64,000 bases of DNA from assembly GCF_048403405.1 (NCBI RefSeq), contig NZ_CP183135.1. One strand, 5' to 3'. The stretch comes from Escherichia coli. Lineage in GTDB: Bacteria; Pseudomonadota; Gammaproteobacteria; Enterobacterales; Enterobacteriaceae. Every line of letters starts with the position of its first letter. Positions within the stretch are counted from its first letter, which is position 1. Below, piece after piece: positions 2,965-61,420 of this stretch. The notes below the pieces were generated by a model. The model had not been told where the DNA came from. It saw only the letters and a list, made by a program, of their open reading frames with translations, and did no database searches. The position numbers and the translations under genes were made by a program.

Positions 2965-3180
2965 TGGAGCACCTCAAAAACACCATCATACACTAAATCA
3001 GTAAGTTGGCAGCATCACCTAATTCGGGGCAGAATTGGTAAAGAGAGTCGTGTAAAATATCGAGTTCGCACATCTTGTTGTCTGATTATTGATTTTTCGC
3101 GAAACCATTTGATCATATGACAAGATGTGTATCCACCTTAACTTAATGATTTTTACCAAAATCATTAGGGGATTCATCAG

Positions 3181-42657: not shown

Positions 42658-43038
42658 ATGATTAAATCACTTTTTGCCGTCATTATCGGCGGTTCTGTTG
42701 GATGTACTCTGCGCTGGTTACTGTCCACACGCTTTAACAGTCTTTTTCCAAATCTACCTCCAGGTACACTGGTGGTGAACCTCCTTGCCGGGTTAATTAT
42801 TGGTACTGCGTTGGCGTACTTTTTACGACAACCACACCTTGATCCTTTTTGGAAATTAATGATAACAACGGGACTTTGTGGAGGTCTGAGTACTTTCTCT
42901 ACATTTTCTGTTGAAGTATTCGCATTACTCCAGGCGGGAAATTATATATGGGCTTTGACGTCTGTACTTGTTCACGTCATTGGCTCCCTCATCATGACAG
43001 CTTTAGGCTTTTTTATCATAACCATACTTTTCGCATGA
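42658..43038 (+). CDS. crcB: fluoride ion channel CrcB
   Basis: 126 aa, four TM segments, MIKSLFAVIIGGSVGCTLRW...GGLSTFSTFS. Confidence 0.85.
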   Translation: MIKSLFAVIIGGSVGCTLRWLLSTRFNSLFPNLPPGTLVVNLLAGLIIGTALAYFLRQPHLDPFWKLMITTGLCGGLSTFSTFSVEVFALLQAGNYIWALTSVLVHVIGSLIMTALGFFIITILFA

Positions 43039-43100
43039 GAATTCATTAACGTTACAGGTTTATCAACTAATGTGACGCTTAGGATAGAATTTCGCTCCAT

Positions 43101-43161
43101 GGTATGCGTTTGCAGTCATTACAGTCTCCATGACGACTGTAATGACTGCAAACGCATTACC
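43101..43161. repeat. long near-perfect hairpin (26-bp arms, 8-nt loop) downstream of crcB
   Basis: GGTATGCGTTTGCAGTCATTACAGTC / tccatgac / GACTGTAATGACTGCAAACGCATTACC. Confidence 0.5.
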
Positions 43162-43417
43162 TGACATATCAGTATAAACAATGAATTAACCTCTTGGCGT
43201 ATTTTTTACATCACTGGCCCTCACCCCCCAAAATTCTCTCTGAAAAATTGTTGCGGTTAACGTTGCCAATGTATCCACCCATTTCAGAAGACGATCTGGC
43301 ATCCTGGTGGCATGCTGCGATGTGCTTCAGGTGAGTGCACTGGGCGGTCAGCACAGGCGGTTTCGACAGCGAAATTGCACAGGACGTTATGCCGGCTGTG
43401 AGTACAACATCATAGCC

Positions 43418-44611: not shown

Positions 44612-44746
44612 TGTAATGTTTCAACACCATGTATTAATTGTGTTTATTTGTAAAATTAATTTTTCTGACAATAACATTTCTCGTTGATAATGAGAATCAT
44701 TATTGACATAATTGTTATTATTTTACTGTGTAGGAGCTGTTTGATT

Positions 44747-46471
44747 ATGATCCTGCCCTCTGAAAAATCCGCCACAGATGTGGCTGCGCAGTGCTTCCTG
44801 AATGCCTTGATTCGTGAAACCAAAGACTGGCAACTGGCGGAATACCCGCCAGACGAATTGATTATCCCGCTGGACGAACAGAAGTCGCTCCATTTCAGAG
44901 TGGCTTATTTCTCCCCAACCCAGCATCACCGCTTTGCATTTCCTGCTCATCTGGTCACGGCATCAGGCAGTTATCCTGTCGACTTTACCACTCTCTCCCG
45001 GCTTATTATTGATAAGCTCCGGCATCAACTTTTTCTGCCAGTTCCCCTCTGCGAAACTTTCCACCAACGCGTGCTGGAAAGCTACGCCCATACGCAACAG
45101 ACAATTGATGCCCGCCATGACTGGGCCATCCTGCGTGAAAAAGCGTTGAATTTTGGCGAGGCTGAGCAGGCACTGCTGACAGGACACGCTTTCCACCCTG
45201 CACCTAAGTCTCATGAACCGTTTAACCGCCAGGAAGCTGAACGATACCTGCCTGACATGGCACCTCACTTCCCGCTGCGGTGGTTTTCGGTGGATAAAAC
45301 GCAAATCGCTGGTGAAAGTCTGCATCTTAACCTTCAACAGCGGTTGACGCGATTTGCCGCAGAAAATGCGCCCCAGTTACTCAACGAATTAAGTGACAAT
45401 CAATGGCTGTTCCCGCTGCACCCGTGGCAGGGAGAATATCTTTTGCAGCAAGTGTGGTGCCAGGCACTTTTTGCTAAAGGACTTATCAGAGACTTAGGCG
45501 AGGCCGGCACGTCGTGGCTGCCGACCACCTCTTCCCGCTCCCTCTACTGTGCTACCAGCCGCGATATGATCAAGTTCTCCCTGAGCGTTCGGCTGACCAA
45601 CTCCGTCCGTACTCTGTCTGTGAAAGAGGTGGAGCGAGGAATGCGCCTGGCACGTCTGGCGCAAACCGACGGCTGGCAGATGCTACAGGCCCGCTTCCCT
45701 ACTTTCCGGGTAATGCAGGAGGACGGCTGGGCCGGGCTGCGCGATCTTAACGGCAACATCATGCAGGAAAGTTTGTTTTCCCTGCGTGAAAACCTGCTGC
45801 TGGAGCAGCCGCAAAGCCAGACCAACGTTCTGGTTTCCCTGACTCAGGCCGCACCGGATGGCGGTGATTCGCTGCTGGTTTCGGCGGTAAAACGCCTGAG
45901 CGATCGCCTCGGTATCACTGTGCAACAGGCCGCCCACGCATGGGTCGATGCTTACTGTCAGCAGGTGCTGAAGCCTCTGTTTACGGCTGAAGCGGATTAC
46001 GGCCTGGTGCTGCTGGCGCATCAGCAAAATATTCTTGTGCAGATGCTTGGGGATCTGCCGGTCGGATTTATTTACCGTGACTGCCAGGGCAGCGCGTTTA
46101 TGCCTCACGCGACAGAGTGGCTCGATACCATTGACGAGGCGCAGGCGGAAAATATTTTCACCCGTGAGCAGTTGCTGCGCTATTTCCCTTATTACCTGCT
46201 GGTTAACTCCACTTTTGCCGTAACTGCTGCGCTGGGTGCTGCCGGGCTGGACAGCGAAGCGAATCTGATGGCTCGTGTACGAACATTGCTGGCTGAAGTG
46301 CGTGACCAGGTGACTCATAAAACCTGTCTCAACTATGTTCTGGAAAGTCCGTACTGGAACGTAAAAGGTAACTTTTTCTGTTATCTGAACGATCATAACG
46401 AGAACACCATCGTTGACCCTTCGGTGATCTATTTTGATTTCGCTAACCCGCTGCAGGCTCAGGAGGTCTGA
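44747..46471 (+). CDS. iucA: aerobactin synthetase IucA
   Basis: 574 aa from ATG 44747 (MILPSEKSATDVAAQCFLNAL...), IucA/IucC family. Confidence 0.85.
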   Translation: MILPSEKSATDVAAQCFLNALIRETKDWQLAEYPPDELIIPLDEQKSLHFRVAYFSPTQHHRFAFPAHLVTASGSYPVDFTTLSRLIIDKLRHQLFLPVPLCETFHQRVLESYAHTQQTIDARHDWAILREKALNFGEAEQALLTGHAFHPAPKSHEPFNRQEAERYLPDMAPHFPLRWFSVDKTQIAGESLHLNLQQRLTRFAAENAPQLLNELSDNQWLFPLHPWQGEYLLQQVWCQALFAKGLIRDLGEAGTSWLPTTSSRSLYCATSRDMIKFSLSVRLTNSVRTLSVKEVERGMRLARLAQTDGWQMLQARFPTFRVMQEDGWAGLRDLNGNIMQESLFSLRENLLLEQPQSQTNVLVSLTQAAPDGGDSLLVSAVKRLSDRLGITVQQAAHAWVDAYCQQVLKPLFTAEADYGLVLLAHQQNILVQMLGDLPVGFIYRDCQGSAFMPHATEWLDTIDEAQAENIFTREQLLRYFPYYLLVNSTFAVTAALGAAGLDSEANLMARVRTLLAEVRDQVTHKTCLNYVLESPYWNVKGNFFCYLNDHNENTIVDPSVIYFDFANPLQAQEV

Positions 46472-47419
46472 ATGTCTGGGGCAAACATTGTTCACAGCGG
46501 ATATGGACTGCGCTGTGAAAAACTCGACAAGCCTCTGAATCTTGGCTGGGGGCTGGACAATAGCGCGGTGTTGCACTGGCCCGGGGAGCTGCCAACAGGG
46601 TGGCTGTGCGACGCGCTGGATCAGATATTTATCGCCGCACCACAACTTTCAGCAGTGGTTCTTCCCTGGTCCGAATGGTGTGAGGAGCCACAGGCGCTGA
46701 CGCTTTTCGGACAGGTACAAAGCGACATTATCCATCGTTCCGCTTTCTGGCAGTTACCGTTATGGCTGAGTTCTCCGGCAAACCGGGCCTCCGGTGAAAT
46801 GGTTTTTGATGCAGAGCGTGAGATTTATTTCCCGCAGCGCCCCCCCCGTCCGCAGGGTGAAGTTTATCGTCGTTACGATCCACGCATTCGCAGGATGCTG
46901 AGTTTCCGCATTGCCGATCCCGTTTCTGATGCAGAACGTTTCACTCGCTGGATGAACGATCCGCGCGTTGAGTATTTCTGGGAGCAAAGTGGCTCACTGG
47001 AGGTTCAGATCGCCTATCTGGAACGCCAGCTCACCAGTAAACATGCATTCCCGCTGATTGGTTGTTTCGACGATCGGCCGTTCAGTTATTTCGAAATCTA
47101 CTGGGCGGCGGAAGACCGCATTGGTCGCCACTATTCGTGGCAGCCCTTTGACCGTGGCCTGCATCTGCTGGTTGGTGAACAGCAATGGCGCGGAGCCCAC
47201 TATGTGCAAAGCTGGCTGCGCGGGGTGACACATTACCTGCTGCTGAATGAGCCACGTACGCAGCGCACAGTACTGGAGCCACGCACCGATAACCAGCGCC
47301 TGTTCCGCCATCTTGAGCCTGCGGGATACCGGACAATTAAAGAGTTCGACTTCCCACATAAACGCTCGCGCATGGTGATGGCGGATCGTCATCACTTCTT
47401 CACGGAGGTCGGTCTGTAA
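46472..47419 (+). CDS. iucB: N6-hydroxylysine acetyltransferase IucB
   Basis: 315 aa, position in the iuc operon. Confidence 0.85.
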   Translation: MSGANIVHSGYGLRCEKLDKPLNLGWGLDNSAVLHWPGELPTGWLCDALDQIFIAAPQLSAVVLPWSEWCEEPQALTLFGQVQSDIIHRSAFWQLPLWLSSPANRASGEMVFDAEREIYFPQRPPRPQGEVYRRYDPRIRRMLSFRIADPVSDAERFTRWMNDPRVEYFWEQSGSLEVQIAYLERQLTSKHAFPLIGCFDDRPFSYFEIYWAAEDRIGRHYSWQPFDRGLHLLVGEQQWRGAHYVQSWLRGVTHYLLLNEPRTQRTVLEPRTDNQRLFRHLEPAGYRTIKEFDFPHKRSRMVMADRHHFFTEVGL

Positions 47420-49161
47420 TGAATCACAAAGACTGGGATTTGGTCAACCGCCGCCTGGTGGCAAAAATGTTGTCTGAGCTGGAGTATGAGCAGGTTTTCC
47501 ACGCGGAATCTCAGGGCGATGACCGCTACTGCATTAACCTGCCGGGAGCACAATGGCGCTTCATCGCTGAACGTGGTATCTGGGGCTGGCTCTGGATTGA
47601 TGCTCAAACTCTGCGCTGCGCGGACGAGCCAGTACTGGCTCAGACGCTGCTGATGCAGCTAAAGCAGGTACTGTCAATGAGCGATGCAACCGTTGCTGAG
47701 CATATGCAGGATTTGTATGCCACGCTGCTGGGCGACCTGCAACTACTGAAAGCCCGTCGCGGGCTGAGCGCCAGTGACCTGATTAATCTTAATGCCGACC
47801 GCCTGCAATGCCTGCTGAGCGGTCATCCTAAATTCGTTTTTAATAAAGGTCGCCGTGGCTGGGGTAAAGAGGCGCTGGAACGATATGCGCCAGAGTATGC
47901 CAACACCTTCAGACTGCACTGGCTGGCGGTAAAACGTGAACATATGATCTGGCGCTGTGATAACGAGATGGATATTCATCAGTTGTTGACGGCCGCAATG
48001 GATCCGCAGGAGTTTGCCCGCTTCAGTCAGGTCTGGCAGGAAAACGGACTGGATCATAACTGGCTGCCGCTGCCGGTACATCCGTGGCAGTGGCAGCAAA
48101 AAATCGCTACCGACTTCATCGCTGATTTTGCCGAAGGCAGGATGGTGTCTCTCGGCGAGTTTGGCGACCAGTGGCTCGCCCAGCAGTCGCTGCGTACCCT
48201 GACCAACGCCAGTCGCCGGGGCGGGCTGGATATCAAGCTGCCGCTGACCATCTACAACACCTCATGCTACCGGGGGATCCCTGGCAGATACATCGCTGCC
48301 GGACCACTGGCTTCACGCTGGCTACAACAGGTTTTTGCGACCGACGCCACCCTAGTGCAAAGCGGCGCAGTGATACTTGGTGAACCGGCTGCAGGCTATG
48401 TCTCCCATGAAGGCTATGCCGCGCTTGCCCGGGCTCCCTATCGCTACCAGGAAATGCTTGGTGTTATCTGGCGGGAGAATCCGTGCCGCTGGCTGAAACC
48501 GGATGAAAGTCCGGTTCTGATGGCAACACTGATGGAGTGCGACGAAAACAATCAGCCGCTGGCAGGCGCATATATAGACCGCTCCGGGCTGGACGCTGAA
48601 ACCTGGCTTACGCAACTGTTCCGGGTGGTCGTGGTTCCTCTGTATCACCTGCTTTGCCGCTACGGTGTCGCGCTTATTGCACATGGACAAAATATAACTC
48701 TCGCCATGAAAGAGGGGGTTCCACAGCGTGTTCTGCTGAAAGACTTCCAGGGCGATATGCGACTGGTGAAAGAAGAGTTCCCCGAAATGGACTCTTTGCC
48801 TCAGGAGGTTCGTGATGTTACATCCCGCCTGAGTGCGGACTATTTAATCCATGATTTGCAGACGGGTCACTTCGTGACAGTACTGCGTTTTATTTCGCCA
48901 CTGATGGTTCGTCTTGGCGTACCTGAAAGGCGATTTTATCAACTGCTGGCAGCAGTGTTGAGTGATTACATGAAAAAACATCCACAAATGTCAGAGCGTT
49001 TTGCGCTTTTCTCACTTTTCAGGCCACAAATCATTCGCGTGGTGCTGAACCCGGTAAAACTGACCTGGCCTGATCTGGATGGCGGCAGCCGCATGCTGCC
49101 GAATTACCTTGAGGATCTGCAAAATCCGCTGTGGCTGGTAACTCAGGAATATGAATCATGA
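47419..49161 (+). CDS. iucC: aerobactin synthetase IucC
   Basis: 580 aa IucA/IucC-family protein. Confidence 0.85.
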   Translation: MNHKDWDLVNRRLVAKMLSELEYEQVFHAESQGDDRYCINLPGAQWRFIAERGIWGWLWIDAQTLRCADEPVLAQTLLMQLKQVLSMSDATVAEHMQDLYATLLGDLQLLKARRGLSASDLINLNADRLQCLLSGHPKFVFNKGRRGWGKEALERYAPEYANTFRLHWLAVKREHMIWRCDNEMDIHQLLTAAMDPQEFARFSQVWQENGLDHNWLPLPVHPWQWQQKIATDFIADFAEGRMVSLGEFGDQWLAQQSLRTLTNASRRGGLDIKLPLTIYNTSCYRGIPGRYIAAGPLASRWLQQVFATDATLVQSGAVILGEPAAGYVSHEGYAALARAPYRYQEMLGVIWRENPCRWLKPDESPVLMATLMECDENNQPLAGAYIDRSGLDAETWLTQLFRVVVVPLYHLLCRYGVALIAHGQNITLAMKEGVPQRVLLKDFQGDMRLVKEEFPEMDSLPQEVRDVTSRLSADYLIHDLQTGHFVTVLRFISPLMVRLGVPERRFYQLLAAVLSDYMKKHPQMSERFALFSLFRPQIIRVVLNPVKLTWPDLDGGSRMLPNYLEDLQNPLWLVTQEYES

Positions 49162-50435
49162 AAAAAAGTGTCGATTTTATTGGTGTAGGGACAGGGCCAT
49201 TTAATCTCAGCATTGCTGCGTTGTCACATCAGATCGAAGAACTGGACTGTCTCTTCTTTGATGAACATCCTCATTTTTCCTGGCATCCGGGTATGCTGGT
49301 ACCGGATTGTCATATGCAGACCGTCTTTCTGAAAGATCTGGTCAGTGCTGTTGCACCTACAAATCCCTACAGTTTTGTTAACTATCTGGTGAAGCACAAA
49401 AAGTTCTATCGCTTCCTTACAAGCAGACTACGTACAGTATCCCGTGAAGAGTTTTCTGACTACCTCCGCTGGGCTGCTGAAGATATGAATAACCTGTATT
49501 TCAGTCATACCGTTGAAAACATTGATTTCGATAAAAAACGTCGATTGTTTCTGGTGCAAACCAGCCAGGGAGAATATTTTGCCCGCAATATCTGCCTTGG
49601 TACAGGAAAACAACCTTATTTACCACCCTGTGTGAAGCATATGACACAATCCTGTTTCCATGCCAGTGAAATGAATCTTCGTCGGCCGGACCTTAGTGGA
49701 AAACGGATAACCGTGGTTGGTGGAGGACAGAGTGGTGCAGACCTGTTCCTTAATGCATTACGCGGGGAATGGGGAGAAGCGGCGGAAATAAACTGGGTCT
49801 CCCGGCGTAATAATTTTAACGCACTGGATGAGGCTGCTTTTGCTGATGAGTATTTTACACCTGAATATATTTCAGGCTTCTCCGGACTGGAGGAAGATAT
49901 TCGCCATCAGTTACTGGATGAGCAGAAAATGACATCGGATGGCATCACTGCCGATTCTTTACTGACCATTTATCGTGAGTTGTACCACCGTTTTGAAGTT
50001 CTGAGAAAACCAAGAAATATCCGTCTGCTACCCAGCCGCTCGGTAACAACTCTGGAAAGTAGTGGTCCTGGCTGGAAGTTGCTGATGGAGCATCATCTGG
50101 ATCAGGGCAGGGAGAGCCTGGAAAGTGATGTGGTGATTTTCGCCACAGGTTACCGTTCTGCGTTGCCACAAATACTTCCCTCACTGATGCCCCTGATCAC
50201 CATGCACGATAAGAACACCTTTAAAGTGCGTGATGACTTCACTCTGGAATGGAGTGGCCCGAAAGAGAACAACATCTTCGTGGTCAACGCCAGTATGCAA
50301 ACCCATGGCATCGCCGAACCCCAGCTCAGCCTGATGGCATGGAGATCTGCACGTATTCTTAATCGCGTAATGGGACGTGATTTATTCGATCTCAGTATGC
50401 CGCCCGCCCTGATTCAGTGGCGCAGCGGCACCTAG
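49158..50435 (+). CDS. iucD: L-lysine N6-monooxygenase IucD
   Basis: 425 aa, N-terminal FAD motif IGVGTGP, second GGGQSG motif. Confidence 0.85.
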   Translation: MKKSVDFIGVGTGPFNLSIAALSHQIEELDCLFFDEHPHFSWHPGMLVPDCHMQTVFLKDLVSAVAPTNPYSFVNYLVKHKKFYRFLTSRLRTVSREEFSDYLRWAAEDMNNLYFSHTVENIDFDKKRRLFLVQTSQGEYFARNICLGTGKQPYLPPCVKHMTQSCFHASEMNLRRPDLSGKRITVVGGGQSGADLFLNALRGEWGEAAEINWVSRRNNFNALDEAAFADEYFTPEYISGFSGLEEDIRHQLLDEQKMTSDGITADSLLTIYRELYHRFEVLRKPRNIRLLPSRSVTTLESSGPGWKLLMEHHLDQGRESLESDVVIFATGYRSALPQILPSLMPLITMHDKNTFKVRDDFTLEWSGPKENNIFVVNASMQTHGIAEPQLSLMAWRSARILNRVMGRDLFDLSMPPALIQWRSGT

Positions 50436-50516
50436 GGAAAACGCAGCCGGAGGCTGCTTCTTTAACTCGCTACACAGCATCTTTGGGCTGATTTTTTCCG
50501 CCCGTATGGAGGAATA

Positions 50517-52718
50517 ATGATGATAAGCAAAAAGTATACGCTTTGGGCTCTCAACCCACTGCTTCTTACCATGATGGCGCCAGCAGTCGCTCAACAAACC
50601 GATGATGAAACGTTCGTGGTGTCTGCCAACCGCAGCAATCGCACCGTAGCGGAGATGGCGCAAACCACCTGGGTTATCGAAAACGCCGAACTGGAACAGC
50701 AGATTCAGGGCGGCAAAGAGCTTAAAGACGCACTGGCTCAGCTGATCCCTGGCCTTGACGTCAGCAGCCGGAGCCGCACCAACTACGGTATGAATGTGCG
50801 TGGCCGCCCGCTGGTCGTGCTGGTTGACGGCGTGCGTCTCAACTCTTCACGTACCGACAGCCGACAACTGGACTCTATAGATCCTTTTAATATCGACCAT
50901 ATTGAAGTGATCTCCGGTGCGACGTCCCTGTACGGCGGCGGCAGTACCGGTGGCCTGATCAACATCGTGACCAAAAAAGGCCAGCCGGAAACCATGATGG
51001 AGTTTGAGGCTGGCACCAAAAGTGGCTTTAGCAGCAGTAAAGATCACGATGAACGCATTGCCGGAGCTGTCTCCGGCGGAAATGAGCATATCTCCGGACG
51101 TCTTTCCGTGGCATATCAGAAATTTGGCGGCTGGTTTGACGGTAACGGCGATGCCACCTTGCTTGATAACACCCAGACCGGCCTGCAGTACTCCGATCGG
51201 CTGGACATCATGGGAACTGGTACGCTGAACATCGATGAATCCCGGCAGCTTCAGTTGATCACACAGTACTATAAAAGCCAGGGCGACGACGATTACGGGC
51301 TTAATCTCGGGAAAGGCTTCTCTGCCATCAGAGGGACCAGCACGCCATTCGTCAGTAACGGGCTGAATTCCGACCGTATTCCCGGCACTGAGCGGCATTT
51401 GATCAGCCTGCAGTACTCTGACAGCGCTTTTCTGGGACAGGAGCTGGTCGGTCAGGTTTACTACCGCGATGAGTCGTTGCGATTCTACCCGTTCCCGACG
51501 GTAAATGCGAACAAACAGGTGACGGCTTTCTCTTCGTCACAGCAGGACACCGACCAGTACGGCATGAAACTGACTCTGAACAGCAAACCGATGGACGGCT
51601 GGCAAATCACCTGGGGGCTGGATGCTGATCATGAGCGCTTTACCTCCAACCAGATGTTCTTCGACCTGGCTCAGGCAAGCGCTTCCGGAGGGCTGAACAA
51701 CAAGAAGATTTACACCACCGGGCGCTATCCGTCGTATGACATCACCAACCTGGCGGCCTTCCTGCAATCAGGCTATGACATCAATAATCTCTTTACCCTC
51801 AACGGTGGCGTACGCTATCAGTACACTGAAAACAAGATTGATGATTTCATCGGCTACGCGCAGCAACGGCAGATTGCCGCCGGGAAGGCTACATCCGCCG
51901 ACGCCATTCCTGGCGGCTCAGTCGATTACGACAACTTCCTGTTCAACGCCGGTCTGCTGATGCACATCACCGAACGCCAGCAGGCATGGCTCAACTTCTC
52001 CCAGGGCGTGGAGCTGCCGGACCCGGGTAAATACTATGGTCGCGGCATCTATGGTGCTGCAGTGAACGGCCATCTTCCTCTAACAAAGAGTGTGAACGTC
52101 AGCGACAGCAAGCTGGAAGGCGTGAAAGTCGATTCTTATGAGCTGGGCTGGCGCTTTACTGGCAATAATCTGCGTACCCAAATCGCGGCCTACTATTCGA
52201 TTTCTGATAAGAGCGTGGTGGCGAATAAAGATCTGACCATCAGCGTGGTGGACGACAAACGCCGTATTTACGGCGTGGAAGGTGCGGTGGACTACCTGAT
52301 TCCTGATACTGACTGGAGTACCGGAGTGAACTTCAACGTGCTGAAAACTGAGTCGAAAGTGAACGGTACCTGGCAGAAATACGATGTGAAGACAGCAAGC
52401 CCATCAAAAGCGACAGCCTACATTGGCTGGGCACCGGACCCGTGGAGTCTGCGCGTGCAGAGCACCACCTCCTTTGACGTGAGCGACGCGCAGGGCTACA
52501 AGGTCGATGGCTATACCACCGTGGATCTGCTCGGCAGTTATCAGCTTCCGGTGGGTACACTCAGCTTCAGCATTGAAAACCTCTTCGACCGTGACTACAC
52601 CACTGTCTGGGGGCAGCGTGCACCACTGTACTACAGCCCGGGTTACGGCCCAGCGTCACTGTACGACTACAAAGGCAGGGGCCGAACCTTTGGTCTGAAC
52701 TACTCTGTGCTGTTCTGA
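50517..52718 (+). CDS. iutA: ferric aerobactin TonB-dependent receptor IutA
   Basis: 733 aa, signal peptide, TonB box region, C-terminal ...NYSVLF. Confidence 0.85.
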   Translation: MMISKKYTLWALNPLLLTMMAPAVAQQTDDETFVVSANRSNRTVAEMAQTTWVIENAELEQQIQGGKELKDALAQLIPGLDVSSRSRTNYGMNVRGRPLVVLVDGVRLNSSRTDSRQLDSIDPFNIDHIEVISGATSLYGGGSTGGLINIVTKKGQPETMMEFEAGTKSGFSSSKDHDERIAGAVSGGNEHISGRLSVAYQKFGGWFDGNGDATLLDNTQTGLQYSDRLDIMGTGTLNIDESRQLQLITQYYKSQGDDDYGLNLGKGFSAIRGTSTPFVSNGLNSDRIPGTERHLISLQYSDSAFLGQELVGQVYYRDESLRFYPFPTVNANKQVTAFSSSQQDTDQYGMKLTLNSKPMDGWQITWGLDADHERFTSNQMFFDLAQASASGGLNNKKIYTTGRYPSYDITNLAAFLQSGYDINNLFTLNGGVRYQYTENKIDDFIGYAQQRQIAAGKATSADAIPGGSVDYDNFLFNAGLLMHITERQQAWLNFSQGVELPDPGKYYGRGIYGAAVNGHLPLTKSVNVSDSKLEGVKVDSYELGWRFTGNNLRTQIAAYYSISDKSVVANKDLTISVVDDKRRIYGVEGAVDYLIPDTDWSTGVNFNVLKTESKVNGTWQKYDVKTASPSKATAYIGWAPDPWSLRVQSTTSFDVSDAQGYKVDGYTTVDLLGSYQLPVGTLSFSIENLFDRDYTTVWGQRAPLYYSPGYGPASLYDYKGRGRTFGLNYSVLF

Positions 52719-52790
52719 CCGGTATTCCTTTACAACAAAGGTACGCTGATATCAACATGGCCGCTGACAGCCAAGTTGATATCATATAAT

Positions 52791-52851
52791 ACACGACATA
52801 ATCTGTAGTCAGGGAGGATAGACTCTTTACTGACTACAGATTATGTCGTGT
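52791..52851. repeat. perfect 22-bp inverted repeat with 17-nt spacer just downstream of iutA; core resembles RepFIB iterons
   Basis: ACACGACATAATCTGTAGTCAG ... CTGACTACAGATTATGTCGTGT; core CTGTAGTCAG also occurs in the iterons at 33950-34000. Confidence 0.5.
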
Positions 52852-53243
52852 TCCGTGCTCATTTCCTCAAAAAAATACAAGAAAAGAATTAGTATTCTAA
52901 CAAAAAGTGAAATAAATTGTATCAAACTCCCTCTTTTAATCCTGTTGAGTAAATCAGCTTTTGCAATAGGATTGAAAGAGTGTAAGTGGAATCTCTTCCG
53001 GATACTCGTTACCACCGTGGCTAGAATATCTACGGCTGCGGGCCAGTAATAGATTAAGTGATAACAGCTGTCTGGAAATGTAGGGGCGTATCCACTAATC
53101 ATAATCATTGTGAGATAAATATTACGGGGCATTTTATAATGAATAAAATATACTCTCTAAAATATTGTCATATTACCAATACCATGAAGGTGATGCTGCC
53201 AACTTACTGATTTAGTGTATGATGGTGTTTTTGAGGTGCTCCA

Positions 53244-53519
53244 GTGGCTTCTGTTTCTATCAGCTGTCCCTCCTGTTCAGCTACTGACGGGGTGGTGCGT
53301 AACGGCAAAAGCACCGCCGGACATCAGCGCTATCTCTGCTCTCACTGCCGTAAAACATGGCAACTGCAGTTCACTTACACCGCTTCTCAACCCGGTACGC
53401 ACCAGAAAATCATTGATATGGCCATGAATGGCGTTGGATGCCGGGCAACAGCCCGCATTATGGGCGTTGGCCTCAACACGATTTTACGTCACTTAAAAAA
53501 CTCAGGCCGCAGTCGGTAA
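53244..53519 (+). CDS. insA: IS1 InsA
   Basis: 91-aa InsA ORF. Confidence 0.85.
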
Positions 53520-53540
53520 CCTCGCGCATACAGCCGGGCA

Positions 53541-53930
53541 GTGACGTCATCGTCTGCGCGGAAATGGACGAACAGTGGGGCTATGTCGCGCCAGCGCTGG
53601 CTGTTTTACGCGTATGACAGTCTCCGGAAGACGGTTGTTGCGCACGTATTCGGTGAACGCACTATGGCGACGCTGGGGCGTCTTATGAGCCTGCTGTCAC
53701 CCTTTGACGTGGTGATATGGATGACGGATGGCTGGCCGCTGTATGAATCCCGCCTGAAGGGAAAGCTGCACGTAATCAGCAAGCGATATACGCAGCGAAT
53801 TGAGCGGCATAACCTGAATCTGAGGCAGCACCTGGCACGGCTGGGACGGAAGTCGCTGTCGTTCTCAAAATCGGTGGAGCTGCATGACAAAGTCATCGGG
53901 CATTATCTGAACATAAAACACTATCAATAA
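53541..53930 (+). pseudogene. insB: IS1 InsB, N-terminal region disrupted by the 11-bp deletion
   Basis: Track ORF (129 aa) matches InsB only from ...[11 protein letters not shown] onward. Confidence 0.7.
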
Positions 53931-54183
53931 GTTGGAGTCATTACCGCGCTTCCTGGGGGGTTAATGGCTGATGACGATAAAATCATATATCGAATGATTT
54001 ATTTCTCTGCCTGTAAATATCAGGCCAGGATTTATTATGCGATTAATGATAAATATCATATCATCTGCGGGTTTCCCTCCACGCAGGTCCGGTTTCCGGC
54101 GAAACCGGAGCCTCATTTTTCGGCCTGAAGTTTTGTCGTTGACTACTTTTTACCGGCTTGTGCCCAGTTGAGAAGCCGCTGAC

Positions 54184-55206
54184 TTAGTTTCTGAATCTCC
54201 GAAGATGGCTTTCCGGAATAAAATAGATGTTGCCCCGTGCCCGTGAGCAGGCCACGTATAGCCTGTTACGGGATGATGGTGGAAGTGCTGCCAGCTTCTG
54301 TTGGATGAGGCGCATCCAGTGGTTGGCCCCCATCACGATGCAGACGTCCTGAAAGTGGTCGAGTCCTTTACTGCCCCCCCAGTTCATTGAGTGGCATCCG
54401 TAACGGTGATGTTCGCGATAGAAGAGCTTGATCATCGTGTTGTCCGCGTGCAGGGCCGCTGAACGCGCTTCATCCGTGACGATTTCAATCTGGGTGGTAT
54501 GTGTTCCATGAGCCGAAATGCGAATGTTCAGTTGTCCGGTAATGAACTCACACACTGTAGCTGAACAGCGCCATGTCCGGCTGAGCGTCTCACAATCCAC
54601 CATGATACCCGCAGCCCTGAAGCGAGCCTCGTATCGGGTTATGTCTTCATGCAGCGTAGCATTGACGTTACCGTCGCGGCTTGTGTCAAAGGTATGCTGA
54701 TAAAAATCCCCGCAGCACAGCACTGAGATTTCCGCGCGGCATAGCTCCAGCAGAAAATTAAAGTCATGGCCGGCAAAGTCCTGGACTTCATCAACGAACA
54801 ACTCATCGTAGTAACGGGCAAGTCGGGTACGGATATCTGGCAGCAACCCCCGGGCTGTCAGCAGGTGTGCGAGCCGCCGGTGATACAGCCGTCCGGCGGG
54901 ATCCTGATAATGCCGGATATTCGTGCGCGGTATTCTGGAAGGGGGCTGGTTGAAGCTCAGACCACGCGATGACAGTTGCTCCTGCAGGAAAGGGCGAAAA
55001 CAGAAACCGTGCAGAAACTCAAACCAGGTCATCACACGGATCCCGTACGGTATGTAGCCAAAGCGTCTGATAATCTGCGCCCGCAGATGTGCTTCATTAT
55101 TTACGGTGAAGGTCAGGATCAGCGTCCGCCGGTCCTCTCTTAACCGACGTATCAGCAGCGTGGTTTTACCCGAGCCGGCAACCGCAAATATCACTCTCTT
55201 ATCCAT
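54184..55206 (-). CDS. compact SF1 (UvrD-like) helicase-family protein, 340 aa
   Basis: Walker A AVAGSGKTT, motif II FVDEVQD, motif V WGGSKGLDHFQDVCIVMG, motif VI LYVACSRARG; start overlaps the upstream ATPase gene by 16 nt. Confidence 0.55.
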   Translation of the reverse strand: MDKRVIFAVAGSGKTTLLIRRLREDRRTLILTFTVNNEAHLRAQIIRRFGYIPYGIRVMTWFEFLHGFCFRPFLQEQLSSRGLSFNQPPSRIPRTNIRHYQDPAGRLYHRRLAHLLTARGLLPDIRTRLARYYDELFVDEVQDFAGHDFNFLLELCRAEISVLCCGDFYQHTFDTSRDGNVNATLHEDITRYEARFRAAGIMVDCETLSRTWRCSATVCEFITGQLNIRISAHGTHTTQIEIVTDEARSAALHADNTMIKLFYREHHRYGCHSMNWGGSKGLDHFQDVCIVMGANHWMRLIQQKLAALPPSSRNRLYVACSRARGNIYFIPESHLRRFRN

Positions 55207-56755
55207 GCCAGTGCCTCCTGGATATAATCAGGAACGGTCAGCTTTTCGGCGTGCAACTGTAACAGCTGGAATGCTGCTTCTGCCTTATTGGCCAGCATGT
55301 AATCCTGAACCGTGAGTGTCCGGCGGGTTCCGCGGAAAAGCGCATCACACAGGTCGGCATTATCCTGATACAGGCAGATTTCAAATGTGGAGCGGCTGTT
55401 GTCGTGGTCAGCAAATGCCCGGGAGCGGGAACAAAGCACGTCAGCATAGCGTTCATCGCAATTTTGCTGATAGTTGCCGTCATTGTCGCGAAGGGCCGCG
55501 ACACGATTTTCCAGAAGACGGGCCAGTTCAAGATAACGACGGAAACTCGTTCCGCCGATAGCGATGATGTGAACCCCGTCATCCTCCGGTGCCCTGCCAT
55601 ACAGGCGGTGATAAAAGGCCTCGATCAGAATAAACTCAGCATCCCCCTCCACGAGCAGCACGCGTCTGGCCAGCGCAAATTCCAGCACGTTATTATCCGG
55701 TGCTTTCATGAAGAAGGCGGCAGTCTCAGCGGAAAGTTCATTCATCAGTACCGGCCGGGTAGCTCCGAGGAGAATAGCCTTACGTAGGTCGAGGCGGGAG
55801 GAGATATGGCTACTGTGTGTGGCAATAAACACCTGCGTCTGCCGTTCCGTGGCAAGCTGATTAACCAGCCTCTTCATACTGACATGGCTGAGATGATTCT
55901 CCGGCTCCTCAAGCAACAGCGCGTGGATCTCTCCCCCTGCTGCTGATGCCGCTGCAGCGCAAACTCCGTTTTGATGAAACACTGTCTTCCTTTTCCGCGG
56001 TGACGAATGGAAATACCGTCCTCAGTAATGTCCAGGTTCGCCTCAAGACCTGATTTAGCGCCGGAACGCACGCCAAACTGATACGTTTTCAGCGTGTCGT
56101 TTATGGCGGACAGATGCCGGGCGCAGAAGTGCATTTTCTGTTGCCGGTAACTGTTTTCAAGCCGGTACCGATCGGCCACCGGCACATTGACGCTGTAAAC
56201 TGTGCGCGTATACTCCTGTGCGGCATGCTCGTTATCAATGCGTGCACTGTCTAAGAACAGATGGCGCAGATAGCGTCTGAAGCCTGCGAAATGACCACCG
56301 GAGAATGTGCTGAACTGCACGGAATAGTATTCATAGGGAAAATTATCAGGATCCTGCTGCAAAACATGGTGTATATCCTGACCGTATTCCTCCATCATGG
56401 GAGCAATGCGCATTCTGAGACCATCCGCATCGATACCCGCCAGATTTTGCCTGCCGTTCAGGTCAGGCTCTCCCCCATTACTCAGGAAAACGTCAGCGGT
56501 CAGCACGGGTAACTGATCGGCACGGCGCTCACCTTCCTGAAAATGCCTGACTGCTGACTGTGACAGGAGCGATTCCACCCCCAGCGCCTCAACCCGATGC
56601 CTGCTGTCACTCAGCACAAGGTCAAGAGCCAGCAGAATAGTGCTTTTCCCGGACTCATTGTCCCCAACCAGAATGTTACGATCGTTGCTGAAGCGCAGGT
56701 CCAGTTCCGGAAACTTTTTGAAGTTTTGCAGCATAAGCCGCGTGATCAGTGGCAT
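55191..56755 (-). CDS. OLD-family ABC-ATPase/TOPRIM nuclease-like protein (~520 aa); frame broken once at a C5 run (55933-55937)
   Basis: N-terminal ORF has Walker A GDNESGKST; C-terminal ORF has Walker B/H-loop LLLEEPENHLSH and TOPRIM-like LLVEGDAE ... RDNDG. Confidence 0.55.
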
Positions 56756-56829
56756 TTTTTTATTCCTTTATATACCGCTGCCTGAAAGAGCGGCCGGCCG
56801 CGCCTGACCGCCTGTTTTGTTTTACAGCG

Positions 56830-57246
56830 TTATCTTACCCAGTCTTCCAGCACAAGACCCGGTACCCGCTCAAACTCTCTCACATTATTCGTCACCAGAA
56901 TGGCACAGGCAGCGATGGCGTGTCCGGCTATCGCCGTGTCGTTCGGACCGATCGGCGTGCCGGCGAGACGCAGTGCCACCTTAATCTCCGTGGTCGCATC
57001 CACCGCGGCGCGGTCCCACGGCAGGACGGCATCGAGCCTCTCACAGAACGCGTCAACCAGTTGCACGTGGCGTGGCGAGGCCTTCGGACCGGTGGCACCG
57101 AAGCGCATCTCGGAGTAGGTGATGGCCGAGACCACGATACGGTGACCGCGCAGCACCGACTGCTCCAGGTGCTTAAGCAATGCTTCAGGTTGCTCGCGCA
57201 TGATGAACGAGCAGATGTTCGTGTCGAGCATATAGATCTTGTTCAC
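56830..57246 (-). CDS. vagD: PIN-domain toxin VagD (VapC family)
   Basis: MNKIYMLDTNICSFIMREQPEALLKHLEQSVLRGHRIVVSAITYSEMRFG... 138 aa. Confidence 0.85.
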   Translation of the reverse strand: MNKIYMLDTNICSFIMREQPEALLKHLEQSVLRGHRIVVSAITYSEMRFGATGPKASPRHVQLVDAFCERLDAVLPWDRAAVDATTEIKVALRLAGTPIGPNDTAIAGHAIAACAILVTNNVREFERVPGLVLEDWVR

Positions 57247-57473
57247 AGGTTAACTCGTCCTTCGTCGCTGACAACGTCCTCGCGCTCCGTCATAAAGTCC
57301 GGATCGGCCTTTTCTAGCTCCAGGAATGAGCCCCAGGTCGGCCGGACGGGGCGCAGAATGATGCTGTCCCCTTCCCGGACGATCTCCAGCTCGCTCACCC
57401 CCTCAAAATCCAGATCGCGTGGAAGGCGGATAGCACGGTTGTTGCCATTTTTAAAAATGGATACGGTTCTCAT
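57243..57473 (-). CDS. vagC: antitoxin VagC (AbrB/SpoVT-type)
   Basis: MRTVSIFKNGNNRAIRLPRDLDFEGVSELEIVREGDSIILRPV... from in-frame ATG 57473; overlaps vagD by 4 nt. Confidence 0.85.
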   Translation of the reverse strand: MRTVSIFKNGNNRAIRLPRDLDFEGVSELEIVREGDSIILRPVRPTWGSFLELEKADPDFMTEREDVVSDEGRVNL

Positions 57474-58032
57474 GATTCTCTCCCGGGTAAGTGTGGATAT
57501 GTGATGCATATCCGGAATGATGTTCATTGCACCGGGTGTGTGCATATGTTTAGTATAGGCAGATGTCAGGCATATGGATATGTTCAGCCTATGTTATTTT
57601 CTCTCTTTCCCCGTGCAGATCCGGTTTCTGGTGGTTCCGGATCCGCGGATCCTTCGCTGCCGCCCGCTGGTCCGCTTTCACAGGATGTGGTGTCCCGCTC
57701 CGCTGACATGACACTGTATGTTGTGTTTCTTCCCGTGTTCCCGAGCCAGTCATCAGCGGCAGAAAAGATCGCTTCGCTTATTCACTGATCCTGATTCACT
57801 TCCGGAAAATCCTGAATCCGATAAAAATCGGATCATAGAAAAACAGTCATCCTGTAATTTATCATGGTTACTACATTGCAGGTTATTATTGTCATGATTA
57901 CTTTTCAGGTCAGTTATTGATGGTGGTGTTAATAATAGCTGGATAACAATATTCCGTTGCCGGAGGCATGTTATAGCGTAATACTGGTGTATACTTAATG
58001 GTGTACAGAGAGTATGTAAGATGAGGTGCATT

Positions 58033-58558
<526 letters not shown>

Positions 58559-59365
58559 ATGTCAGGCTCCGTTATACACAGCCAGTCTGCAGCCATGGTA
58601 CCGGCAGTGTATTCTGCCGGACAGTCTGCACAACTTCCTGTTGCCATTGATTATCCGGCAGCTCTGGCACTCCGCCAGATGTCGATGGTTCATGATGAAC
58701 TGCCGAAATATCTGCTGGCTCCCGAGGTGAGTGCCCTGCTTCATTATGTCCCGGATCTGCGCCGCAAGATGCTGCTGGCCACTCTGTGGAACACCGGCGC
58801 GCGTATTAATGAAGCACTAGCGCTGACGCGGGGGGATTTTTCGCTCACGCCTCCGTATCCGTTTGTGCAGCTTGCGACCCTGAAACAACGGACCGAAAAA
58901 GCTGCCAGGACGGCGGGGAGAATGCCCGCCGGTCAGCAGACTCACCGGCTGGTTCCGCTCTCTGACTCCTGGTACGTCAGCCAGCTGCAGACGATGGTGG
59001 CAACACTGAAAATACCCATGGAGCGGCGTAACCGTCGCACAGGAAGGACAGAGAAAGCGCGGATCTGGGAAGTGACGGACAGAACGGTCAGGACCTGGAT
59101 TGGGGAGGCGGTTGCCGCCGCTGCTGCTGACGGTGTGACGTTCTCTGTTCCGGTCACACCACATACGTTCCGCCATTCCTATGCGATGCACATGCTGTAT
59201 GCCGGTATACCGCTGAAAGTTCTGCAAAGCCTGATGGGACATAAGTCCATCAGTTCAACGGAAGTCTACACGAAGGTTTTTGCGCTGGATGTGGCTGCCC
59301 GGCACCGGGTGCAGTTTGCGATGCCGGAGTCTGATGCGGTTGCGATGCTGAAACAATTATCCTGA
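58559..59365 (+). CDS. resD: tyrosine recombinase ResD (F-type multimer resolvase)
   Basis: 268 aa, ...HTFRHSYAMHMLYAGIPLKVLQSLMGHKSISSTEVYTKV, directly after ccdB. Confidence 0.85.
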   Translation: MSGSVIHSQSAAMVPAVYSAGQSAQLPVAIDYPAALALRQMSMVHDELPKYLLAPEVSALLHYVPDLRRKMLLATLWNTGARINEALALTRGDFSLTPPYPFVQLATLKQRTEKAARTAGRMPAGQQTHRLVPLSDSWYVSQLQTMVATLKIPMERRNRRTGRTEKARIWEVTDRTVRTWIGEAVAAAAADGVTFSVPVTPHTFRHSYAMHMLYAGIPLKVLQSLMGHKSISSTEVYTKVFALDVAARHRVQFAMPESDAVAMLKQLS

Positions 59366-59829
59366 GAATAAATGCCTTGGCCTTTATATGGAAATGTGGA
59401 ACTGAGTGGATATGCTGTTTTTGTCTGTTAAACAGAGAAGCTGGCTGTTATCCACTGAGAAGCGAACGAGACAGTCGGGAAAATCTCCCATTATCGTAGA
59501 GATCCGCATTATTAATCTCAGGAGCCTGTGTAGCGTTTATAGGAAGTAGTGTTCTGTCATGATGCCTGCAAGCGGTAACGAAAACGATTTGAATATGCCT
59601 TCAGGAACAATAGAAATCTTCGTGCGGTGTTACGTTGAAGTGGAGCGGATTATGTCAGCAATGGACAGAACAACCTAATGAACACAGAACCATGATGTTT
59701 GGTCTGTCCTTTTACAGCCAGTAGTGCTCGCCGCAGTCGAGCGACAGGGCGAAGCCCTCGAGTGAGCGAGGAAGCACCAGGGAACAGCACTTATATATTC
59801 TGCTTACACACGATGCCTGAAAAAACTTC

Positions 59830-60842
<1,013 letters not shown>

Positions 60843-60844
60843 TC

Positions 60845-61100
60845 TGAGGGTTATCTGTCACAGATTTGAGGGTGGTTCGTCACATTTATTCTGACCTACT
60901 GAGGGTAATTTGTCACAGTTTTGCTGTTTCCTTCAGCCTGCATGGATTTTCTCATACTTTTTGAACTGTAATTTTTAAGGAAGCCAAATTTGAGGGCAGT
61001 TTGTCACAGTTGATTTCCTTCTCTTTCCCTTCGTCATGTGACCTGATATCGGGGGTTAGTTCGTCATCATTGATGAGGGTTGATTATCACAGTTTATTAC
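60845..61100. repeat. incC iterons of RepFIA
   Basis: Five direct repeats with core TGAGGG-n-TTTGTCACAG / TCGTCAC downstream of repE. Confidence 0.6.
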
Positions 61101-61420
61101 TCTGAATTGGCTATCCGCGTGTGTACCTCTACCTGGAGTTTTTCCCACGGTGGATATTTCTTCTTGCGCTGAGCGTAAGAGCTATCTGACAGAACAGTTC
61201 TTCTTTGCTTCCTCGCCAGTTCGCTCGCTATGCTCGGTTACACGGCTGCGGCGAGCGCTAGTGATAATAAGTGACTGAGGTATGTGCTCTTCTTATCTCC
61301 TTTTGTAGTGTTGCTCTTATTTTAAACAACTTTGCGGTTTTTTGATGACTTTGCGATTTTGTTGTTGCTTTGCAGTAAATTGCAAGATTTAATAAAAAAA
61401 CGCAAAGCAATGATTAAAGG

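What the first reader, a model, noticed from the sequence alone, without database searches (positions are those of the whole stretch)
54184..56755. OLD-family ATPase/TOPRIM gene plus minimal SF1 helicase gene downstream of vagCD: candidate Gabija-like defence module
Seen in sequence: an ABC-type ATPase (GDNESGKST, LLLEEPENHLSH) fused to a TOPRIM-like domain (LLVEGDAE, RDNDG), followed with a 16-nt overlap by a 340-aa protein carrying only core SF1 helicase motifs (AGSGKTT, DEVQD, LYVACSRAR). Both are co-oriented with the vagCD toxin-antitoxin pair. Established knowledge: OLD-family nucleases paired with UvrD-like helicases form anti-phage modules such as Gabija (GajA/GajB). Inference: this is a compact, divergent member; the helicase is well below the ~490 aa usual for GajB, so it may represent an uncharacterised variant. 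The ATPase frame is broken at a C5 run, so it may be an artefact-split gene or an inactivated one.
Basis: partly seen in the sequence, partly recalled or inferred. Interest (0 to 1): 0.7.

Follow-up and report, generated by a model that had tools for sequence, protein, structure and literature searches.

The report
Frameshifted compact Gabija on IncF plasmid
This is a copy of a known anti-phage system, Gabija (a nuclease gene plus a helicase gene), that is common on E. coli and Klebsiella IncF plasmids; here a one-base deletion has broken the nuclease gene, so the finding is correct but ordinary.

Summary
On the minus strand, downstream of vapBC (vagCD), lie an OLD-family ABC-ATPase/TOPRIM gene (55191-56755) and a 340-aa SF1 helicase gene (54184-55206) that overlap by 16 nt.

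**Family.** The halves of the ATPase and the helicase together match existing PADLOC Gabija models end to end: GajA PDLC00102 (532 positions) and GajB PDLC00148 (369 positions). The short helicase is therefore already a modelled Gabija subtype. It is roughly GajB without the 2B domain.

**Distribution.** The 521-523 aa + ~343 aa pair, with the same 16-nt overlap, recurs without vapBC in Pseudomonas and Acinetobacter chromosomes. About 2,300 plasmid records and 734 of 5,426 complete E. coli genomes match the region or its frameshift site. Wu et al. already reported Gabija with tmn and VapBC on E. coli plasmids.

**Frameshift.** The break is C5 at 55933-55937, against C6 in about 97% of E. coli-type copies. 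The window is identical to pCREC774-1 (NZ_CP183139.1), where PGAP marks the gene as frameshifted. Four records carry C5 plus a further gajB frameshift, and others carry an IS91-family insertion in gajA. This favours real, recurrent inactivation, but reads are needed to confirm it.

**Open point.** I found no experimental test of this compact subtype. Interest is low.

The parts
55191..56755 (-). gajA pseudogene: OLD-family (class 2) ABC-ATPase + TOPRIM nuclease. It encodes 521 aa when intact and is split here into two ORFs.
   Evidence: The two halves match PADLOC GajA PDLC00102 at profile positions 3-287 and 284-531 of 532. Pfam gives AAA_15 and OLD-like_TOPRIM at 4.4e-16. phmmer hits solved B. 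cereus GajA at 1.6e-10, with TOPRIM E370 aligned to E379. PGAP annotates it as 'ATP-dependent nuclease, frameshifted' in the identical record NZ_CP183139.1.
55874..56755 (-). N-terminal gajA ORF of 293 aa: 272 native residues, including Walker A K37, followed by 21 out-of-frame residues.
55191..55982 (-). C-terminal gajA ORF of 263 aa, from an out-of-frame GTG. It holds Walker B LLLEEPE, the H-loop ATHSSH, TOPRIM E370 and D424/D426.
55933..55937 (.). Frameshift site: a C5 run (G5 on the coding strand) where intact alleles have C6.
   Evidence: locate the site. An 81-bp query finds C5 in 19 plasmid records, against about 701 at 98.8% identity. The sampled rows of that band span one extra base, which is C6. 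In complete E. coli genomes the counts are 27 against 672.
54184..55206 (-). gajB: compact 340-aa SF1A (UvrD/Rep/PcrA-like) helicase, intact and identical to WP_000361402.1.
55191..55206 (-). 16-nt overlap between the end of gajA and the start of gajB.
   Evidence: The same 16-nt overlap occurs in the Pseudomonas and Acinetobacter loci.
56830..57473 (-). vapC (56830-57246) and vapB (57243-57473), also called vagD/vagC: a neighbouring toxin-antitoxin pair that is not part of the Gabija unit.
   Evidence: RefSeq annotates WP_001034044.1 and WP_001261286.1 in identical DNA. The gajAB pair occurs without vapBC elsewhere.

Best explanation
This is a plasmid-borne Gabija anti-phage module of a compact subtype: GajA of 521 aa and GajB of 340 aa.

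**How an intact copy would work (inferred from work on B. cereus Gabija).**
- GajA is a class 2 OLD nuclease. Its ABC-ATPase domain holds the TOPRIM nuclease in check while nucleotide levels are normal.
- GajB is a UvrD-like SF1A helicase/NTPase. It docks on the GajA ATPase domain and engages DNA ends or nicks.
- Phage infection releases DNA nicking or cleavage and nucleotide hydrolysis, which blocks phage replication.

The helicase here is essentially GajB without the 2B domain, with a smaller 1B insertion. This is inferred from length and from the model.

**State in this window.** A one-base deletion in a G6 run upstream of Walker B splits gajA, so the nuclease/ATPase cannot be made as one chain. 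The module is most likely inactive. gajB and vapBC are still intact, so the loss is probably recent.
For: **Family.**
- Full-length matches to PADLOC GajA and GajB models of matching length.
- Pfam OLD-like_TOPRIM plus AAA_15.
- Solved GajA hit at 1.6e-10, with the catalytic Glu aligned.

**Conserved unit.**
- The pair (521-523 aa + 343 aa, 16-nt overlap) occurs in Pseudomonas and Acinetobacter. In Acinetobacter it lies beside a Wadjet system.
- Catalytic motifs are invariant.
- dN/dS between the E. coli and Klebsiella alleles is 0.12 for gajA and 0.13 for gajB.

**Known context.**
- In pEGY3 the same locus is followed by Tmn (PADLOC, 2224 bits) and a second vapBC.
- This matches the Gabija-tmn-VapBC plasmid arrangement of Wu et al..

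**Frameshift likely real.**
- The window is identical to NZ_CP183139.1, where the gene is flagged as frameshifted.
- There are no other indels against pEGY3 over 10 kb.
- Four records from different submissions carry C5 plus a second 1-bp deletion in gajB, a nested pattern.
- An independent IS91-family insertion in gajA exists on other plasmids.
Against: - Neither the window's copy nor any member of this compact subtype was found to have a phage-defence phenotype in the papers I could search. The mechanism is transferred from the longer B. cereus system.
- By sequence alone the helicase is not detectably related to solved GajB. phmmer finds nothing, and the profile hits PcrA and UvrD first.
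- The C5 run is a homopolymer next to a GATC site, which is the kind of place long-read assemblies err. One C5 record (CP027119) also has a frameshifted vapB.
- No reads are available.
Confidence: 0.8

Rival explanations
1. The module is intact and functional in the real plasmid, and the C5 run is an assembly error (homopolymer under-call).
For: - About 97% of E. coli-type copies have C6.
- The deletion lies in a homopolymer 7 nt from a GATC site.
- One other C5 record also has a frameshifted vapB, which suggests an error-prone assembly.
- gajB shows no decay in this window.
Against: - The window has no other indels against pEGY3 across 10 kb of sit/iuc genes.
- Apart from an 11-bp IS1 deletion, there are none in the 4.4 kb around the locus.
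- C5 recurs in 19 plasmid records and 27 genome records from many laboratories.
- All four records with the extra gajB deletion sit on the rare C5 background, as expected for descent rather than for independent errors.
Confidence: 0.27
2. The pair mainly serves the plasmid, in competition with other mobile elements or in stability, rather than protecting the host from phage. Its repeated loss reflects a cost to the plasmid.
For: - The system is overwhelmingly plasmid-borne in E. coli: 737 places on plasmids against 9 on chromosomes.
- It sits among toxin-antitoxin and partition genes near RepFIA.
- Wu et al. propose a role in plasmid maintenance and conflicts between mobile elements.
- Hong et al. 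report Gabija acting on transduced plasmid DNA under certain conditions.
- gajA has been inactivated independently by a frameshift and by an IS91-family insertion.
Against: - Homologous pairs also sit in chromosomes of Pseudomonas and Acinetobacter. The Acinetobacter copy lies beside Wadjet, a known defence system.
- This reading is not exclusive of anti-phage activity.
- No experiment on this subtype was found.
Confidence: 0.15
3. vapBC and the two downstream genes form one integrated four-gene system, with the toxin-antitoxin pair regulating the nuclease/helicase.
For: - The genes are co-oriented with only a 74-nt gap.
- The association holds on E. coli and Klebsiella plasmids.
- No convincing terminator lies between them.
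Against: - The gajAB pair is conserved without vapBC in Pseudomonas and Acinetobacter.
- A second, separate vapBC copy sits next to tmn on pEGY3. vapBC therefore behaves as an independent module.
Confidence: 0.05
4. It belongs to another OLD/ABC-ATPase defence family (PARIS, Septu/retron PtuA, P2 Old) rather than to Gabija.
For: There are weak hits to PtuA, AriA, MAD3 and Old models.
Against: - The PtuA, AriA and MAD3 hits cover only the first ~50-85 residues (the P-loop), against full-length coverage for GajA.
- The NCBIfam hits score 19-39 bits, far below their cut-offs of 172-725 bits.
- The Old model (PDLC02358) matches only the C-terminal half, at 4e-11, far weaker than GajA.
- The partner gene is a UvrD-like helicase, not an HNH nuclease or AriB.
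Confidence: 0.02

Closest known systems
Gabija of Bacillus cereus VD045 (GajA 578 aa, GajB 494 aa; solved 4:4 complex, e.g. PDB 8jqb, 8tk1, 8sm3)
   Same: - Both are two-gene operons of an OLD-family ABC-ATPase/TOPRIM nuclease and a UvrD-like SF1A helicase.
- The TOPRIM Glu is aligned (E370 against E379), and Walker A, Walker B and the H-loop are present.
- The helicase fold matches GajB.
   Different: - GajA is about 57 aa shorter.
- GajB is 154 aa shorter, about the size of 1A + 1B + 2A alone. It has no room for the 111-aa 2B domain defined in PMC10822852.
- Helicase sequence similarity to B. cereus GajB is undetectable by HMMER.
- In this window gajA is frameshifted.
Plasmid-borne Gabija-tmn-VapBC cluster of E. 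coli conjugative plasmids (Wu et al., bioRxiv 10.1101/2022.08.21.504612)
   Same: The arrangement gajB-gajA-vapC-vapB, then a divergent tmn and a second vapBC, is seen in pEGY3 with 99.9% identical DNA. I infer this is the system that paper counted on 104 plasmids.
   Different: - The window lacks the ~8.5-kb block of tmn, vapBC2, a HEPN-family nuclease gene and a DUF3800 gene. Here vapB abuts ccdA, a junction shared by 301 plasmid records.
- The Gabija that paper tested came from ECOR49 and is a longer form: its primer encodes MRIETVYIKGL, and GajA has mutated residues up to K528.
- The paper's reference plasmid CP083423.1 was not available for a direct check.
Class 2 OLD nucleases (Schiltz et al. 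classification: an OLD gene in tandem with a UvrD/PcrA/Rep-like helicase; from my own knowledge)
   Same: ATPase + TOPRIM architecture with an adjacent helicase gene.
   Different: None at the level of the definition. The helicase partner is unusually small.
Rep/UvrD/PcrA SF1A helicases, including the engineered Rep lacking 2B (from my own knowledge)
   Different: It is about half their length, lacks a 2B domain, and is encoded with an OLD nuclease rather than standing alone.

Membership tests
Gabija (GajA/GajB) | GajA: an N-terminal ABC-type ATPase fused to a C-terminal TOPRIM nuclease (OLD family) | tested here: met
   The two halves cover PADLOC GajA PDLC00102 at positions 3-287 and 284-531 of 532. 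Pfam gives AAA_15 and OLD-like_TOPRIM at 4.4e-16. Solved GajA is hit at 1.6e-10.
Gabija (GajA/GajB) | GajA catalytic residues: Walker A Lys, Walker B, H-loop His, TOPRIM Glu and Asp residues | tested here: met
   K37, LLLEEPE 280-286, ATHSSH (H314/H317), E370 (aligned to B. cereus E379) and D424/D426 are all invariant in the three-genus alignment.
Gabija (GajA/GajB) | GajB: an adjacent, co-directional UvrD-like SF1 helicase | tested here: met
Gabija (GajA/GajB) | Both genes intact (a complete system) | tested here: not met
   gajA is split by the C6-to-C5 deletion at 55933-55937. PGAP marks it as frameshifted in the identical record. This concerns this copy only, not the family assignment.
Gabija (GajA/GajB) | Canonical four-domain GajB (1A, 1B, 2A, 2B), as in B. 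cereus VD045 | tested here: not met
   The protein is 340 aa against 494 aa. The C-terminal half (about 185-340) is the size of 2A alone, and no segment could hold a 111-aa 2B. This is a trait of the type example, not of the PADLOC family definition, which includes 365- and 369-position GajB models.
Gabija (GajA/GajB) | A GajA4:GajB4 supramolecular complex | not testable with these tools
   No multimer prediction or biochemistry is available here.
Gabija (GajA/GajB) | Protection against phage that needs both genes | not testable with these tools
   No experiment on this compact subtype was found in the literature searches.
Class 2 OLD nucleases | An OLD-family gene in tandem with a UvrD/PcrA/Rep-like helicase gene | tested here: met
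PARIS / Septu / retron-Ec78 PtuA / P2 Old | A full-length match to AriA, PtuA or Old, and the matching partner (AriB, HNH PtuB, or none) | tested here: not met
   The PtuA and AriA hits cover only the P-loop residues (~1-85), and the Old model matches only the C-terminal half at 4e-11. The NCBIfam hits score far below their cut-offs. The partner gene is a helicase.
VapBC-coupled four-gene system | vapBC conserved together with the nuclease/helicase pair | tested here: not met
   The pair occurs without vapBC in Pseudomonas (L003-L005) and Acinetobacter (L006-L007).

The most novel reading that the evidence does not exclude
The 521-aa GajA plus 2B-less 340-aa GajB pair may be a mechanistically distinct Gabija subtype that nobody has tested.

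- It would be the dominant plasmid-borne form in Enterobacteriaceae, present in about 13% of complete E. coli genomes and on more than 1,300 Klebsiella plasmid records.
- The helicase would act without the regulatory 2B domain.
- Repeated knock-outs of gajA (a slippage-prone G6 run specific to the E. coli allele, and IS91-family insertions) would reflect a real cost or conflict, for instance with co-resident mobile elements.
Probability: 0.25. Interest if true: 0.45.

Novelty: already known. Interest (0 to 1): 0.2.

Why it matters
As it stands this matters little. The locus is a broken copy of a system that defence-finder tools already recognise and that has been described on E. coli plasmids.

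Two points have modest value.

- **Annotation.** Each half of the split gajA covers only about half of the GajA model. A tool that requires near-complete coverage of the model could therefore miss the system in this plasmid.
- **An untested subtype.** The compact pair is very widespread on resistance and virulence plasmids (IncF types) and evolves under purifying selection, yet appears never to have been tested. A natural GajB without the 2B domain would be a useful comparison for the B. cereus and P. aeruginosa models. It could also bear on phage therapy against E. coli and Klebsiella.

Tried and rejected
- **Was this the tested ECOR49 Gabija?** GajA H317 exists in both, so I suspected it was. 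I rejected this. The ECOR49 primer encodes MRIETVYIKGL and has no match in the window. The mutated residues (GajA K35, E379, D495, K528; GajB K27/T28, D183/E184) do not fit this protein.
- **PA14 Gabija.** Its GajB motif is DESQ, against DEVQ here, so I did not treat it as the same subtype.
- **Linkage of the frameshift to the SNP at 55417.** No plasmid record (of 766) carries the window's base there. Only one of 703 E. coli genome records does, so the SNP is private and gives no lineage signal. That one record identified the source plasmid, pCREC774-1.
- **Wu et al. reference plasmid.** CP083423.1 is not in the collections.
- **Helicase against the PDB by sequence.** phmmer gave no hit. A profile hit PcrA and UvrD but not GajB. 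The link to GajB therefore rests on the PADLOC models, the fold and the gene context.
- **Promoter and terminator scan of 53900-57900.** Counts were not above the shuffled background, so the operon structure stays unresolved.
- **NCBIfam.** It has no specific model for either protein.
- **Literature.** Searches by protein accession and by IncF, ColV or pKpQIL plus Gabija gave nothing specific.
Full report
**What is there**

All genes of the finding lie on the minus strand.
- vapB/vapC (vagC/vagD) end at 56830.
- After a 74-nt gap comes a 293-aa ORF (55874-56755) with the Walker A motif GDNESGKST.
- A 263-aa ORF (55191-55982), in another frame, carries LLLEEPENHLSH, ATHSSH, LLVEGDAE and RDNDG.
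- A 340-aa ORF (54184-55206) carries AGSGKTT, DEVQD, GDFYQ and LYVACSRAR.
- The last two genes overlap by 16 nt.

**The split gene**

I compared the window with the near-identical plasmid pEGY3 (NZ_CP023145.1). The two ATPase ORFs are one gene. The window has C5 at 55933-55937 where pEGY3 has C6. With the sixth C restored, the product is a 521-aa protein that differs at one residue from the annotated WP_001128474.1.

The frameshift falls after residue 272, in a variable loop just upstream of Walker B. The N-terminal product therefore keeps only Walker A. Walker B, the H-loop and the whole TOPRIM domain are out of frame.

**What family it is**

- Against PADLOC, the two halves cover GajA model PDLC00102 at positions 3-287 and 284-531 of 532 (3.6e-39 and 1e-58). 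The helicase covers GajB model PDLC00148 at 1-352 of 369 (1.9e-47). Second models of 534 and 365 positions fit as well.
- Pfam finds AAA_15 and OLD-like_TOPRIM at 4.4e-16 in the repaired protein.
- phmmer against the PDB finds B. cereus GajA at 1.6e-10, with the TOPRIM glutamate aligned (E370 here, E379 there).
- The helicase is too divergent for Pfam (E about 0.005) or for PDB sequence searches.
- An AlphaFold model built on 36 homologues is confident (pLDDT 88).
- Its best Foldseek match in the PDB is GajB (8tk1_F, 2.7e-10), followed by PcrA, UvrD and Rep.
- Hits to PtuA, AriA and MAD3 are confined to the P-loop. The Old model matches only the C-terminal half, far more weakly than GajA.

So the pair is a class 2 OLD nuclease with a UvrD-like helicase, which is Gabija.

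**The short helicase**

B. cereus GajB is 494 aa, with these domains (PMC10822852):
- 1A: residues 1-72 and 157-223
- 1B: residues 73-156
- 2A: residues 224-305 and 417-494
- 2B: residues 306-416

In the model of the 340-aa protein, the N-terminal half is a 1A-type fold. It carries a three-helix insertion of about 72 residues (61-132), which I read as a reduced 1B. The C-terminal half (about 185-340) is the size of 2A alone. I infer that this is a GajB lacking 2B. This rests on lengths and secondary structure, not on a residue-level superposition.

It is not a one-off. The family has 2,737 clusters at 90% identity. The listed full-length members are 339-376 aa, nearly all 339-349 aa, and come from Enterobacterales, Pseudomonas, Acinetobacter, Achromobacter and Cupriavidus. 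Motifs I, II, III and VI are invariant across 36 members at 49-89% identity.

**A conserved two-gene unit**

In Pseudomonas (L003-L005) and Acinetobacter (L006-L007) chromosomes, the 343-aa helicase is preceded by a 521-523-aa AAA_15/OLD-TOPRIM protein with the same 16-nt overlap. No vapBC is present. In Acinetobacter the pair lies next to a Wadjet JetABCD system.

The three GajA proteins share 53-59% identity, and all catalytic motifs are invariant. Between the E. coli allele and the Klebsiella allele (pBSI029-KPC2), dN/dS is 0.12 for gajA and 0.13 for gajB. Both genes are therefore maintained by selection where they are intact. vapBC is a neighbour, not a component.

**How common and how known**

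- The 2.75-kb region matches 2,298 of 72,556 plasmid records: 1,328 Klebsiella, 686 Escherichia, and also Enterobacter, Citrobacter and Salmonella.
- The frameshift site matches 734 of 5,426 complete E. coli genomes, almost always on plasmids.
- RefSeq annotates the genes as 'AAA family ATPase' or 'ATP-dependent nuclease', and as 'helicase UvrD'.
- In pEGY3, vapB is followed divergently by a 1,264-aa protein that is Tmn (PADLOC, 2224 bits). After it come a second vapBC, a HEPN-family nuclease gene, a DUF3800 gene and then ccdAB.
- This is the arrangement Wu et al. (bioRxiv 10.1101/2022.08.21.504612) describe for 104 E. coli plasmids: Gabija and tmn with VapBC. I infer it is the same system, but their reference plasmid was not available to check.
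- The Gabija they tested came from ECOR49 and is a longer form. The PA14 system studied by Hong et al. has a different GajB motif.
- I found no experiment on the compact subtype. Subscription journals are not covered by that library.

**Is the frameshift real?**

*Frequency.* An 81-bp query over the site finds C5 in 19 plasmid records, against about 701 in the 98.8% identity band. The sampled rows of that band span one extra base, which is C6. In complete E. coli genomes the counts are 27 against 672.

*Source.* The window (49377-61457) is identical, base for base, to NZ_CP183139.1. That record is plasmid pCREC774-1 of E. coli strain 774 (human urine, Taiwan), where PGAP marks the gene as frameshifted.

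*For a real mutation.*
- The window shows 8 SNPs and no indel against pEGY3 over 10 kb of sit/iuc genes. Around the locus the only other indel is an 11-bp deletion in IS1. The assembly is therefore not riddled with homopolymer errors.
- Four records from different submissions carry C5 and also a one-base deletion in the C7 run of gajB at 54374. All four sit on the rare C5 background, as expected from descent with further decay.
- C5 occurs on plasmids with tmn (CP025329) and without it (CP027703 and the window).
- On NZ_CP059918, gajA with an intact C6 run is interrupted by an IS91-family insertion. CP142586 shows the same split, two-piece match. Loss of gajA has therefore happened more than once.
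- The Klebsiella allele has no G6 run.

*Against.*
- The site is a homopolymer close to a GATC.
- One C5 record also has a frameshifted vapB.

I put the chance that the frameshift is real at about 0.7. Only reads can settle it.

**Mechanism**

*Shown here:* the domain make-up, the catalytic residues, the fold, the conserved pairing and the purifying selection.

*Inferred from the B. cereus work:* an intact pair would form a GajA-GajB complex. ATP bound to the GajA ATPase domain restrains the TOPRIM nuclease. Infection relieves this, and GajB senses DNA ends or nicks and hydrolyses nucleotides. A 2025 preprint on the P. aeruginosa system instead proposes attack on DNA ends that RecBCD cannot load onto.

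*In this window:* the split gajA cannot give a single-chain ATPase-nuclease, so the module is most likely dead.

An SD-like AAGGAAG lies just upstream of the GTG that opens the C-terminal ORF. Reading the sequence, a separate C-terminal fragment could in principle be made. I regard a functional split enzyme as unlikely and did not test it.

**Verdict**

The claim of a new variant does not hold at the level of classification, because the system is already modelled, annotated and reported on plasmids. What remains open is the biology of the compact, 2B-less subtype and why gajA is repeatedly lost.

- Novelty: already known.
- Interest: 0.2.

Noticed in passing
window 49377-61457: This stretch is base-for-base identical to NZ_CP183139.1, plasmid pCREC774-1 of E. 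coli strain 774 (human urine, Taiwan). It is a plasmid carrying aerobactin and sit genes next to a RepFIA replicon: ccdAB, resD-like integrase, repE, sopAB.
   Followed up: yes
window 53189-53945 (deletion at 53586): The IS1 copy 238 bp downstream of gajB is 757 bp rather than 768 bp. An 11-bp deletion (GGGGCTAAATC-type) in the transposase region makes PGAP annotate two separate IS1 CDSs, so this copy is probably defective.
   Followed up: partly
window 2252-3019 (-), 36898-37665 (-), 53189-53945 (+): The window holds three IS1 copies. The sitABCD, iucABCD and iutA block (37666-53188) lies between two inverted IS1 copies, like a composite transposon.
   Followed up: no
window 57594-57990, compared with L009 1035-9590: In pEGY3, an ~8.5-kb block sits between vapB and ccdA: tmn (1,264 aa), a second vapBC, a HEPN-family nuclease gene, a hypothetical gene and a DUF3800 gene. 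The window lacks this block and has ~360 bp of other sequence instead. The tmn-less junction is shared by 301 plasmid records.
   Followed up: partly
window 53044-53188: About 146 bp between iutA and the IS1 left end have no counterpart in pEGY3 or in the ExPEC XM plasmid.
   Followed up: no
window 54374 (C7 run in gajB); L012: Four plasmid records (CP027703, MF174860, MG656414, CP127318) carry a one-base deletion in this C run of gajB in addition to C5 in gajA. Both genes are broken there.
   Followed up: yes
L013 (NZ_CP059918.1), equivalent to window ~55526-55530: An IS91-family transposase element (~1.7 kb) is inserted in gajA on a turkey E. coli plasmid whose C6 run is intact. A swine plasmid (CP142586.1) shows a similar two-piece match.
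   Followed up: partly
window 55417: G here (GajA Ala446) is private to pCREC774-1. No plasmid record of 766 has it, and only one of 703 E. coli genome records does. The others have A (Val).
   Followed up: yes
window 49158-50435 (iucD); L010 1-1115: PGAP flags iucD as frameshifted in pCREC774-1. Yet the window has no indel against pEGY3 in this gene and keeps a 425-aa ORF. This is probably a matter of the reference model or start codon rather than a lesion.
   Followed up: partly
L006 7194-13032; L003 272-3028 and 9350-11503: The Acinetobacter homologue of the pair lies next to a Wadjet system (JetA-D domains). The Pseudomonas homologue lies near a helicase IV-like gene and an AAA_13 ATPase gene. 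The Wadjet neighbour points to a defence island.
   Followed up: no
L014 (pBSI029-KPC2), gajA codons ~270-274: The Klebsiella allele reads CAGGGAGAG (QQQGELH), one Gly codon shorter and without the G6 run. The slippage-prone tract is therefore specific to the E. coli-type allele.
   Followed up: yes
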